A stretch of 64,000 nucleotides of DNA. It comes from Mytilus californianus (lineage: Eukaryota). Location of the stretch: assembly GCF_021869535.1 (NCBI RefSeq), contig NW_026262734.1, forward strand, positions 91,202,001-91,266,000. Direction: 5' to 3'. Made by a program: the position numbers. Positions 49,501 through 52,500 of this stretch are shown here, in pieces; position 1 is the stretch's first letter, and each line of letters opens with the position of its first letter.

Positions 49501-52500
49501 TAAACCTGCTGAGATCTGAACAGACAGTCGGAATGATTACTATAGGGCACAGAGAACCTTATAATTTGGATCCTAAGAACCCCTTTACCAATGCAAGCAG
49601 ATCCTGCTCCACATGTTACACCCATCATATTGCTCATGTAAATTATTGAGTTATAACTGTATAACCGATTATAATCTATTATCTGAATAATGCACTGCAT
49701 CTACCTTATACTGCACAGGTCACATGTACTTTAGCTAGGCCAATAGTTTCAGCTTTGCAATCAAAGATCTTGAGGGTTATAACCTGGCTTAAAAAAAATC
49801 CACACTTTTCTAATTTCAGTGCTTGCAGGGTGAAACTAAATTCAGAAAATAAAAATTTTCCTATGATTACTATAAAAAAATTGATGAAAAACTGAAATGT
49901 TCTGATACCTAAATGTTACCTCATACACATAAAAATACAGAAAAACCTCATAAAAAACATGAAACCTGTAATTATTCATGTCCATTTATAACAAATTAAT
50001 CAAGGAAACGATTAAAAATTGATAATTTAACAATTCAAAAGTTCATAATTTCAATTCAAAATTGAAAACACTATTTTGGATAGAACTGTTGCAAGGCATA
50101 TCACAAGATTTTCCTGTGGGTTTTGGTTCATTAAATGTCTCTTTTTTCTTTGCATTATCCTGTTTTTTGGTAGATTTACACGATTATCCTTTTCTGTCAA
50201 TGTTTTAATGAACTCAAGATTTATCTGCATTGTAGACAGATTCAAAATATTGATCATATCTTATCTTTGAGCATAGAATCAGCACAGGGCTCCTTTTTAC
50301 CATAGAATATAGAATACCACAGAACGACCAAAATATTGTCTAAAAATTATACAACAAAATGCAAAACTATGTACAGAGTAATTCATTTCTAAAATGAACA
50401 CTTCCTCTGTAGAATTCCCTTTCTTAGAATATTAAGATAAATATATGTATGTGTATGAGTACGTTGTTGATCGCAATACTGGCTTTAATACAACAGTGGA
50501 GATAGTGCCATCGATTTATTGAAGATGTGCAAGATCAGTTGTAAGCTTTCAACACTTGGTGCGCAAACTACAGTGTCTTCTCGATGGTTCCAATCAATCT
50601 CTGTTTACAAAAAGAAAGAGTCGGAATATTTTTATGTGTTTTGCTTGTTGGAATGTGAAAACACCTTGTGTTGTTCTTTACTTATTTTATCCACAACATT
50701 ATTTGAATGGTAATTTTTTAACTTCGTGACAGTAATTGTTTTCTTGGACTAGCTTTCTTGATATATTCGTCTGGTTCTAGAACATGTCTACTTGGTGAAA
50801 CATAATTAGTCTTTAGTATGATCGTCTTTTCTGGAATTCTTGGAGTTCCAGTTTTGAGAAACATCCTTCTTTTCTCAATTTATAGTCTACTGTAATGAAG
50901 TGTGTCGCCTGCCGCTACACCCCTTTTCAGCTTGTTGATGTTTTTAGTTAGTATAGGTCCCATACTATAGCTCCATACTCCATCATAGATATGAATAGCA
51001 AACTATATGCCTGTCATTGCCTTCCTGTGGGCAGTATCTCAAATTTCTTCCGTTGGATATATAAGTCGTCCATTTTAGATTTTTGAAATGTTTTAGGCCT
51101 AATTAGCATGGGTTATGTTGGACTAGTTGTAAGTGTCCGTTTAAACTATACAACTACTGGGTTTAGTTTTGTATGCTTATAATGTAGCATTGAACCTCAT
51201 TCCCCAGTTGTTTGTCCTTACTTCTACTAGTAGATGTTTAAGATCTTCGTGAAGAATGTCATGGTATTTTATTATCTTGGTGGTTCTATCAAATAGGCAG
51301 GCAGCCATCGGCTAATAATAATAAGTAGTTCTATAGTTTAAACGGACACATACTGACAATCTGACTGGATCCGGGATATTGTTTATATAACACAGAAGGA
51401 GTAACGGTTCTAAACCTTAGTCTGCTTTGATGAACGCCCGAGTCAATTGTTACGTCTTCATGTTCTTCTTCCTCTACTAACACTTTCATTTTTACTGTTT
51501 GTCAAGAACATTTTTAGCTAGTTGTTAAATTATCCTCTTAATTCTATATTCGTCAATTTTTATAGTAGTTTCTAATGGGGCACGGTGTCAAAAGCTTTGG
51601 AAAAATCTAAGATGGCAATGTCAGTTTGGAGTCTGGTTGTATATGCTTTCATAAGATCGTTTTAAGTGACTTGTGACTGGGTTTCGCATGTGTAGCCATA
51701 TATGAGTCGACGATTTAATGATTTTAAAAAATCCTGCTTTTCTAGATCTCTGCAATGCCTGCATAATTTGAAAAGATTATTATCAGTTCGGGTGTTATTT
51801 AACTTGCACTTTCAATGAGTATTCAGTTTGGGATTTCATCCGATCTAGAAACTTTTAATTGGTTCACGTCTATGAGCAGTTTTAGAGCCCCTTTTCTGTT
51901 ATAGGTAGGTTCGGTAATGGGTACTGGATGCGTCTTGTTGTTTCTGGAACTGTTGTGGACTTGTCTGTGGTGAAGACACAAGTAGGTAAAGTGTCTTTCC
52001 AGGATATTTGATTCCATTGTTTTCCCATGAAAAAAAACTGCCTTGTGAGAGCAGCCTTATTGACAAAAAAATAAGTTCCTTTTGTTTGTTATTACAGAGC
52101 ATTACAACTTCCACCAGAAACTTGGCTACGGTTCCATCTTAATCATGGAAGTATAACATGGATTACTATTGGACCAACTGGACAAGTTGGACTTAGAACA
52201 CTAGGAGAAACAGGATTTATGCCTGCTAATGTCACATTCTATTCACAGTTGTAGTACTTTCCTGCTTTTATGTTTATTGATATCATTTCTATATTTGTAT
52301 TAATATTAAATTTATAACATATTGTTTTGATTCAAACCATCATCAATATGAATATTGTAAACGAACTTATTTTCGCGGAAACTGTATTTCGCGTTTAGCC
52401 CTTTCTTTCCGGCTTTTCGGCATCAATTTATTTTTGCGTTGTTTTTTATTATCATGATGTAATTATATATGGAAAGGTCTAATGTTACGTATTCGTGACA

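What the first reader, a model, noticed from the sequence alone, without database searches (positions are those of the whole stretch)
52060..52254. Second, diverged but intact copy of the PGAM5 terminal exon
Seen: 3.7 kb downstream of copy A is a full copy with its own acceptor, same phase and an open frame. By eye about 11 synonymous changes versus about 8 replacements in the alignable part (A>T, LS>FH, VR>IG, R>Q, S>T, D>N), plus a different tail (VTSVL* versus VTFYSQL*). No other PGAM5 exon is duplicated. Inference: mutually exclusive last exons giving two C-termini, one losing two arginines; the excess of silent change suggests both copies were constrained.
Basis: partly seen in the sequence, partly recalled or inferred. 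Interest (0 to 1): 0.68.

Follow-up and report, generated by a model that had tools for sequence, protein, structure and literature searches.

The report
Duplicated last exon of mussel PGAM5
A mussel's mitochondrial phosphatase gene PGAM5 carries a second, diverged copy of its last coding exon, which gene models in related mussels use to give the enzyme an alternative tail; this is an ordinary kind of gene variation, but here it swaps the part of the enzyme that holds its subunits together.

Summary
Window 52098-52254 (+) is an intact second copy of the PGAM5 terminal coding exon (copy A, 48341-48491). It has the same phase and 84.7% identity over 157 nt. Over 46 codons, 11 differ only synonymously and 8 are replaced (dN/dS 0.18). 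The window is from a Mytilus mussel, not human. The alternative-last-exon reading is backed by database models: 5 of 15 listed RefSeq/GenBank PGAM5 proteins from congeners join exons 1-4 to a B-type tail. None of those 5 is from the species whose protein matches this window. The claim that both copies were constrained is only partly supported. By nearer outgroups, all 8 replacements fall on B. Neutrality on B's branch is not rejected (P about 0.17). B changes about five times faster between species than the rest of the protein. Yet frame, tail and acceptor are all conserved. The exon encodes the PGAM5 dimer-interface module, and B loses the equivalents of human R265 and R269.

The parts
28817..28989 (+). 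PGAM5 exon 1 (start codon, hydrophobic N-terminus, WDYNWD multimerisation motif)
   Evidence: tblastn of M. edulis PGAM5 P0002 residues 1-58; translation identical 58/58 to P0014; donor AG|GT at 28989/28990
41948..42135 (+). PGAM5 exon 2 (RHG catalytic motif)
   Evidence: tblastn; reading frame with ..LFIRHGQY..; acceptor and donor contexts
43017..43231 (+). PGAM5 exon 3
   Evidence: Pfam His_Phos_1 32.3 bits against a cut-off of 21.7; 72/72 identical to P0014; splice contexts
45008..45141 (+). PGAM5 exon 4 (second catalytic His in ..CHANVIRY..); tandem CAGCAG acceptor, alternative start at 45011; donor that serves both terminal exons
   Evidence: isoform pairs that differ by one Q at this junction
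46009..46355 (+). Upstream arm of an old inverted repeat in intron 4 (candidate, function unproven)
   Evidence: blastn minus-strand match to 48995-49579: 62% over 271 nt, E 9e-15, plus 67% over 98 nt; duplex -158 kcal/mol vs -89 +/- 6.8 for shuffles, 0 of 200 as low
47435..47474 (+). Degenerate extra copy of the acceptor and start of exon A
   Evidence: local alignment score 18 vs 9.3 +/- 1.5; 0 of 300 shuffles reach it
47612..48402 (+). 83-bp tandem array, 9.5 copies at 96% identity; unit = last 21 nt of the intron + first 62 nt of exon A; 8 decoy acceptors (exon-like starts at 47677, 47760, 47843, 47926, 48009, 48092, 48175, 48258), each reading 39 codons to a stop
   Evidence: TRF; register and translations
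48341..48491 (+). Terminal coding exon A (canonical; 49 codons + TGA); AATAAA at 48496 and 48555
   Evidence: 49/49 identical to P0014 and P0016; 64.2 bits to human PGAM5 chain 3mxo_A; poly(A) hexamers
48995..49579 (-). Downstream arm of the inverted repeat, just past exon A and its proximal poly(A) hexamers (candidate)
52081..52097 (+). Acceptor and polypyrimidine tract of exon B, 17/17 identical to that of exon A
52098..52254 (+). Terminal coding exon B (51 codons + TAG), the finding; ATTAAA at 52305, AATAAA at 52525

Best explanation
Exon B is a true tandem duplicate of the terminal coding exon of a Mytilus PGAM5 gene. It predates the split of several Mytilus species and serves as an alternative last exon. 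The exon 4 donor (45141) can splice to exon A (48341), with cleavage soon after at the AATAAA 5 nt past the stop. Or transcription runs on and the same donor splices to the identical acceptor of exon B (52098), which removes A as intron. Each mRNA therefore carries one tail (286 or 288 residues). The exon encodes the alpha4-beta5 loop, strands beta5 and beta6, and the C-terminal tail. In human PGAM5 this is the only region that makes the dimer contacts, and it lines the basic substrate cleft. The B isoform keeps the fold and the backbone-pairing stretch. It replaces the equivalents of human L252/S253, R265, R269 and D284 and has a new 5-residue end. The inferred effect is a less basic cleft and altered dimer, dodecamer or filament behaviour or substrate preference. 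Shown: the duplication, its intactness, its presence in other species, and the isoform models. Inferred: use in this species, and any functional difference.
For: Same phase, open frame, own stop and downstream poly(A) hexamers. Exon lengths add to 286 and 288 codons, matching the RefSeq isoform lengths. Five of 15 listed cluster members carry exons 1-4 plus a B-type tail, under accessions from at least two annotation sets (XP_071178251.1/XP_076108828.1 and XP_063396904.1). A separate M. galloprovincialis model, P0001, also ends in a B-type exon. All 4 distinct B-type sequences are open, lack indels, share F12, G25, Q29, T38 and N44, and end in the identical ..VTFYSQL. They form a clade with 97/95 support. 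The last 17 intron bases are 17/17 identical between A and B (P about 2e-4 to 2e-3 at 60-70% neutral identity). The flanks show no similarity above shuffles: 31 of 200 and 163 of 200 shuffles reach the observed score. In the same 20 codons, the non-coding array units show 2 synonymous and 5 replacement variants, while A vs B shows 7 synonymous-only and 3 replaced codons. Exon position n equals human residue 240+n (alignment; F244, L242, R251, D277, G279 named in PMC5501728). Dimer contacts are 'exclusively' in this C-terminal portion, and deleting 279-289 gives monomers (PMC5501728, passages). R269 lies in the basic substrate-binding cleft, and R269E reduces filament length and formation (PMC6355839, passages). 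The B-type RefSeq protein folds like the A-type: pLDDT 94/93 vs 93/92 over residues 251-270, both with strands beginning at 256 and 267. Its best PDB match is human PGAM5, TM 0.88-0.91.
Against: No transcript evidence was examined here, and the support behind the RefSeq models is not visible. The proteins identical to this window's exons (P0014, P0015) are A-type only, though 2 of 17 cluster members were not listed. By nearer outgroups all 8 replacements fall on B's lineage. With the 14 synonymous differences split evenly, omega for B is about 0.49, and neutrality is not rejected (P 0.12; marginal P 0.17). Between species B differs at 6/51 residues, against 7/286 for exons 1-4 plus A (Fisher P 0.0067). 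Window B has T at position 8, where the other 25 of 26 rows have A. R25 and R29 are R in 18 and 19 of 26 rows, so B drops widely conserved residues. AlphaFold is insensitive to point changes, so equal confidence says little. No B-type was found outside Mytilus.
Confidence: 0.65

Rival explanations
1. B is a relaxed or decaying relic of the duplication. It still has a perfect acceptor, so it is spliced at a low noise level, which is enough for automatic pipelines to emit isoform models, but the resulting protein has no selected function.
For: Neutrality on B's branch is not rejected. The pairwise data are only marginally incompatible with omega 0.5 (P 0.06). B evolves about five times faster between species than the rest of the protein (P 0.0067). 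B has lost arginines conserved in 18 and 19 of 26 sequences and, in this window, an alanine present in 25 of 26. No B-type model appears among the listed proteins of the species matching the window.
Against: The frame is open with no indel in 4 distinct B-type sequences. The new tail and stop are identical in all of them, and six derived states are shared. The acceptor is 17/17 conserved while the flanks have diverged beyond recognition. B-type is labelled isoform X1/X2 in the annotations that have it. The synonymous-to-replacement ratio differs from that of the adjacent non-coding array units.
Confidence: 0.27
2. B is the last exon of a different transcription unit, a chimeric or transposon-driven transcript, rather than of PGAM5.
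For: P0001 (M. galloprovincialis, 'partial') joins 199 unrelated residues to a B-type exon.
Against: That N-terminal part has no Pfam family and is not encoded in this window (best tblastn E 0.23). Five RefSeq models join B to PGAM5 exons 1-4. No ORF with a family match lies between A and B.
Confidence: 0.04
3. B is an assembly artefact, namely the other haplotype's exon A placed in tandem.
For: Mussel genomes are highly heterozygous (general knowledge, not tested here).
Against: dS of 0.57, a different tail and unrelated flanks are far beyond allelic divergence. A- and B-type tails coexist in the annotations of other species.
Confidence: 0.02

Closest known systems
Human PGAM5-L / PGAM5-S
   Same: The same gene family makes two C-termini by alternative splicing of a 3' exon (PMC11214171 and PMC4040672, passages). 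The region affected is the dimerisation module (PMC5501728).
   Different: As I recall, from no call, the human short form replaces the last exon with an unrelated short hydrophobic tail after about residue 239. The mussel alternative is a homologous duplicate that keeps the whole beta5-beta6-tail module. Mouse is said to lack the S form (PMC4040672), so the human event is not ancestral to this one.
Tandemly duplicated alternative terminal exons (Drosophila pip, PGRP-LC)
   Same: Homologous terminal exons arranged in tandem and chosen one per transcript. PGRP-LC uses competing RNA structures (PMC9013439, passages).
   Different: Here there are only two copies. No regulatory RNA structure is established. 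The only candidate is a diverged inverted repeat bracketing exon A.
Tandem duplicated exon substitutions / mutually exclusive internal exons
   Same: Exon duplication yields isoforms identical except for one homologous segment with the same length class and phase (PMC8373072 and PMC9741552, abstracts only).
   Different: Those are internal exons spliced on both sides. Terminal exons are selected through alternative cleavage and polyadenylation and are treated separately (PMC5740500).
Second PGAM5-like gene of Mytilus (P0041, P0047)
   Same: This is another mussel version of the same module that also lacks both arginines, with L and D at positions 25 and 29.
   Different: It is a separate, much more diverged gene (70-71% identity to exon A in this segment) with a long branch in the tree, not an alternative exon.

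Membership tests
PGAM5 (histidine phosphatase superfamily, branch 1) | His_Phos_1 domain with the RHG motif and the second catalytic histidine | tested here: met
   Exon 3 alone scores 32.3 bits against a cut-off of 21.7. ..IRHGQY.. is in exon 2 and ..CHANVIRY.. in exon 4. Congener full-length proteins score 82 bits.
PGAM5 (histidine phosphatase superfamily, branch 1) | N-terminal membrane anchor and WDxNWD multimerisation motif | tested here: met
   The exon 1 translation holds a hydrophobic stretch and WDYNWD. The motif's role comes from PMC5501728. No transmembrane predictor was run.
PGAM5 (histidine phosphatase superfamily, branch 1) | Terminal segment homologous to the PGAM5 dimerisation module | tested here: met
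   Exon A scores 64.2 bits (E 3e-17) and exon B 54.8 bits (E 4e-14) to human PGAM5 chain 3mxo_A.
Tandemly duplicated alternative terminal exons | Two homologous exons in tandem with the same acceptor phase, each with its own stop | tested here: met
Tandemly duplicated alternative terminal exons | Own cleavage/polyadenylation signal after each exon | tested here: inconclusive
   Hexamers lie at 48496 and 48555 after A, and at 52305 and 52525 after B. In 32% GC DNA such hexamers are frequent by chance, and no 3'-end data were seen.
Tandemly duplicated alternative terminal exons | Transcripts that carry one or the other exon | tested here: inconclusive
   Protein models in congeners: 5 B-type and 9 A-type of 15 listed. 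These are models, not reads, and none is B-type for the species matching the window.
Classical mutually exclusive (internal) exons | Both exons internal, with donor sites joining a common downstream exon | tested here: not met
   Both copies end in stop codons with no PGAM5 coding exon downstream. The next ORFs with a family match belong to a K-channel-like gene starting at 54386.
Pseudo-exon / decayed duplicate | Stops, frameshifts or a lost splice site | tested here: not met
   None in the window copy or in 3 other distinct B-type sequences. The acceptor is intact.
Pseudo-exon / decayed duplicate | Neutral substitution pattern (omega about 1) on its branch | tested here: inconclusive
   Omega for B is about 0.49 and neutrality is not rejected (P 0.12-0.17).

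The most novel reading that the evidence does not exclude
Exon B is an adaptively remodelled, Mytilus-specific interface cassette. By removing the R265/R269-equivalent basic residues and rewriting the tail, it would switch PGAM5 between assembly states (dimer, dodecamer, filament) or substrate sets. Its use would be regulated by RNA looping: the inverted arms at 46009-46355 and 48995-49579 would pair and sequester exon A, its eight decoy acceptors and its proximal poly(A) sites, handing the exon 4 donor to B. That would be a lineage-specific, homologous counterpart of the human L/S switch, tuned to mitochondrial stress in an intertidal animal.
Probability: 0.12. Interest if true: 0.6.

Novelty: new member of a known kind. 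Interest (0 to 1): 0.33.

Why it matters
PGAM5 activity depends on its assembly: the monomerising F244E mutant is inactive (PMC6355839). The swapped exon encodes exactly the segment that makes the dimer and lines the basic cleft. A natural pair of isoforms differing only there, with R269-equivalent present or absent, offers a ready-made experiment on how interface and cleft charge tune PGAM5 oligomerisation, filament formation and substrate choice. It also shows a second, independent route to alternative PGAM5 C-termini besides the human L/S pair. For annotation, it shows that the species matching this window probably lacks a modelled isoform that its congeners have. It also shows that a minisatellite of decoy acceptors sits in front of the canonical exon. 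I found no paper on this in the searches PGAM5+Mytilus (5 papers), PGAM5+mussel (18, 10 listed) and PGAM5+bivalve (3), judged from listings only. The isoforms are, however, already present as automatic RefSeq models.

Tried and rejected
1. Word-indexed search for short (28-90 aa) B-type peptides found no candidate.

2. Exhaustive phmmer with exon B gave 353 hits at E <= 1e-3. Only P0001 is B-like (98.8 bits), and the rest score <= 74 bits as ordinary PGAM5. Clustering at 50% would hide isoforms, so this is weak evidence that B is absent elsewhere.

3. Two two-stretch hits turned out to be a transposase-PGAM5 chimera with a partial repeat of the segment (P0084) and two fused PGAM5 domains (P0085). 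Neither is a B orthologue.

4. The nearest non-Mytilus cluster (P0019) has 4 of 4 members with a C-terminus that are A-type. The unionid mussels are A-like.

5. Flank homology between A and B was not above shuffles.

6. Rfam over 41000-54500 gave 0 matches.

7. AlphaFold models of B-type and A-type RefSeq proteins showed no difference in the swapped segment, so they give no discrimination.

There is no verdict, and B-type self-association stays untested.

9. A possible remnant of the ancestral tail in B's 3' UTR near 52266, which would imply the new tail came from a ~24-nt insertion, rests on an 11-nt match and is too weak to claim.

10. The tree of the 46-residue segment could not place the A/B split relative to P0019.

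11. Supplementary files of the papers were not available. Supplementary figures of PMC6355839 may hold more on R269E.

Full report
WHAT IS THERE. The window is AT-rich (about 32% GC) with no N. On the + strand it holds a five-exon PGAM5 gene. M. edulis PGAM5 (P0002) maps by tblastn to 28817-28990, 41946-42158, 43016-43231, 45005-45190 and 48324-48488, and a second time to 52081-52236. Splice contexts give these exact bounds:
- exon 1: 28817-28989
- exon 2: 41948-42135
- exon 3: 43017-43231
- exon 4: 45008 (or 45011)-45141
- exon 5A: 48341-48491
- exon 5B: 52098-52254

I searched exon by exon. I did not build or search a joined coding sequence or protein from the window. All full-length comparisons used database proteins. 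The exon lengths alone add to 286 codons with A and 288 with B.

IDENTITY. Exon 3 alone hits Pfam His_Phos_1. Exons A and B each hit human PGAM5 chains in the PDB, at 64.2 and 54.8 bits. Exon 1 carries WDYNWD. Exons 1, 3, 4 and A are identical (58/58, 72/72, 44/44, 49/49) to P0014, XP_052075042.1, a Mytilus protein whose species name is cut in the output. Exon 2 scored 64/68, over an interval that overran the exon by 2 nt at one end and 14 nt at the other. The sequence is a mussel's, not human.

- A and B align over 157 nt at 84.7% (E 4e-41).
- They share acceptor phase. B is open for 51 codons to TAG.
- Of 46 alignable codons, 11 differ only synonymously and 8 are replaced. Sd is 14, Nd 10 and omega 0.18.
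- Similarity is confined to the exon plus about 17-27 nt of acceptor. The flanks are no more alike than shuffles.
- No further copy exists elsewhere in the window.

Immediately upstream of exon A lies an 83-bp tandem array (47612-48402, 9.5 copies, 96% identity).
- Its unit is the last 21 nt of the intron plus the first 62 nt of exon A.
- This gives nine identical TTATTACAG|AGCC acceptors in a row. Eight are decoys that would each read 39 codons and stop, lacking beta6 and the tail.
- A degenerate older unit lies at 47435-47474, so the array has a history.
- Its units carry 2 synonymous and 5 replacement variants, a neutral-looking ratio.
- Whether the decoys are used is unknown.

IS B USED? 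I had no transcript data, but the protein databases are informative.
- The 90% cluster of Mytilus PGAM5 has 17 members, of which 15 were listed.
- Of those 15, 9 are A-type and one is truncated before the last exon.
- Five (P0007, P0008, P0009, P0010, P0011; RefSeq isoforms X1, X2, X5) join the same exons 1-4 to a B-type exon ending ..VTFYSQL.
- A separate M. galloprovincialis model (P0001) also ends in a B-type exon. It follows 199 unrelated residues that are not encoded in this window.
- So the duplication predates the split of several Mytilus species, and annotation pipelines model B as an alternative last exon.
- The two proteins matching this window's species are A-type only, and 2 cluster members were not shown, so use in this species is open.
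- I found no B-type outside Mytilus: in the nearest non-Mytilus cluster, 4 of 4 C-termini are A-type. An exhaustive phmmer found only P0001 as B-like among 353 hits.

CONSTRAINT. The pairwise omega of 0.18 rejects omega = 1 (P 0.0007). It rejects 0.5 only weakly (P 0.06); 0.5 is the value expected if A is conserved and B drifts.
- In a 26-row comparison, A is unchanged at all 8 differing positions relative to the other Mytilus A-types.
- A also matches the nearest outgroup, P0019, at 7 of the 8. Position 44 varies among outgroups.
- I therefore place the replacements on B's lineage. Then omega for B is about 0.49 and neutrality is not rejected (P 0.12; marginal 0.17).
- Between species B differs at 6/51 residues, against 1/49 for A and 6/237 for exons 1-4 (Fisher, B vs the rest, P 0.0067).
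- In the tree the B clade (97/95) sits on a stem of 0.17, while the A branches are zero.

Against decay:
- Four distinct B sequences are all open and free of indels.
- They share six derived residues and the identical new tail.
- The last 17 intron bases are 17/17 identical to A's.

My reading is that B is a used exon under relaxed or changed constraint.

WHAT THE EXON ENCODES. The alignment, together with the residues named in the papers, fixes exon position n as human residue 240+n.
- Chaikuad et al. (PMC5501728, passages) state that dimer contacts lie exclusively in the alpha4-beta5 loop, beta6 and the C-tail.
- The named contacts are F244, R251 to the L242 carbonyl, 274-277, and D277-G279.
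- Removing 279-289 gives monomers.
- Ruiz et al. (PMC6355839, passages) show that F244E is monomeric and inactive.
- They also place R269 and R288 in the basic substrate-binding cleft, where charge reversal reduces filament formation.

Swapping this exon therefore swaps the whole interface module.
- B keeps R11 (R251) and positions 34-37 and 39.
- B changes L252/S253, R265 (to G), R269 (to Q) and D284, and has a new end.
- K+R drops from 4 to 2 and net charge from +1 to 0.
- R25 and R29 are arginine in 18 and 19 of 26 sequences. The separate Mytilus PGAM5-like paralogue also lacks both.
- AlphaFold models of B-type and A-type RefSeq proteins are equally confident over this segment. The B model matches human PGAM5 at TM 0.88-0.91.
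- This shows compatibility with the fold and nothing more.
- A functional difference is inferred, not shown.

HOW THE CHOICE MIGHT BE MADE. The two acceptors are identical, so intrinsic 3' splice-site strength cannot decide. A has AATAAA 5 nt after its stop, and hexamers are common in this AT-rich DNA. A diverged inverted repeat brackets the array, exon A and its proximal hexamers:
- The arms are 46009-46355 and 48995-49579.
- blastn gives 62% over 271 nt, E 9e-15.
- The predicted duplex is -158 kcal/mol against -89 +/- 6.8 for shuffles (0 of 200 as low). Other local segments give -96 to -133.
- Pairing would loop A out and favour B, as competing structures do in Drosophila PGRP-LC (PMC9013439).
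- This is a lead only.

COMPARISON AND NOVELTY. Tandemly duplicated homologous terminal exons used alternatively are a described class (pip, PGRP-LC). Because terminal exons are chosen via cleavage and polyadenylation, they are kept apart from true mutually exclusive exons. Human PGAM5 also makes two C-termini from a 3' exon choice. From memory only, the human short tail is not homologous to the long one. The mussel case is a new member of a known kind. It is already present as automatic isoform models in congeners, and I found it in none of the papers listed by three searches (listings only).

UNCHECKED.
- Transcript evidence.
- DNA of B orthologues.
- Self-association of the B-type domain, because the complex job never ran.
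- Paper supplements.

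Noticed in passing
window 47612-48402 (plus 47435-47474): 83-bp minisatellite made of the last 21 nt of intron 4 plus the first 62 nt of exon A. It puts eight decoy acceptors identical to the real one in front of exon A, each leading to a truncated 39-codon ending. A degenerate older unit lies upstream.
   Followed up: partly
window 46009-46355 and 48995-49579: Old inverted repeat (62-67% identity) whose arms bracket the array, exon A and its proximal poly(A) hexamers. Its predicted duplex is stronger than all 200 shuffles. It could loop exon A out in the pre-mRNA.
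   Followed up: partly
window 45002-45010: Tandem CAGCAG acceptor of exon 4. It explains the isoform pairs that differ by one glutamine (288/287 and 286/285 aa). The same +/-Q pairs appear in an unnamed relative, in Sinanodonta, and probably in the crinoid Antedon (282/283 aa).
   Followed up: partly
window 31425-39422 (intron 1): Three copies of a roughly 2.85-kb higher-order repeat. Each is built of a 161-bp x3.5 array, a 35-bp x6.6 array and a 126-135-bp x9-11 array. This explains the long two-strand ORFs there, which have no Pfam match.
   Followed up: partly
P0041, P0047 (not in the window): Mytilus has a second, diverged PGAM5-like gene whose terminal segment also lacks both arginines (L and D at exon positions 25 and 29) and has a longer acidic tail.
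   Followed up: no
P0001 (M. galloprovincialis VDI83355.1): Deposited 'partial PGAM5' model that is 199 residues of unrelated sequence with no Pfam family, followed by a B-type terminal exon. It is probably a mis-joined gene model.
   Followed up: partly
P0084 (unnamed, 610 aa): A transposase-like (DDE_3, below cut-off) plus PGAM5-like chimera from an unnamed source. It repeats the first half of the same terminal segment and has A and Q where the two arginines would be, so partial duplication of this exon may recur in other lineages.
   Followed up: no
window 52255-52285: An 11-nt match to the end of exon A lies about 12 nt past B's stop. It hints that B's new tail arose by a ~24-nt insertion ahead of the ancestral ending, but it is too short to be sure.
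   Followed up: partly
window 8080-9801 (+); 54386-57022 and 62412-62936 (+): Neighbouring genes: cytochrome P450 exons upstream. Downstream lies a voltage-gated K-channel-like gene (BTB_2 tetramerisation domain, then Ion_trans), followed by a second BTB_2 ORF that suggests a tandem channel paralogue.
   Followed up: no
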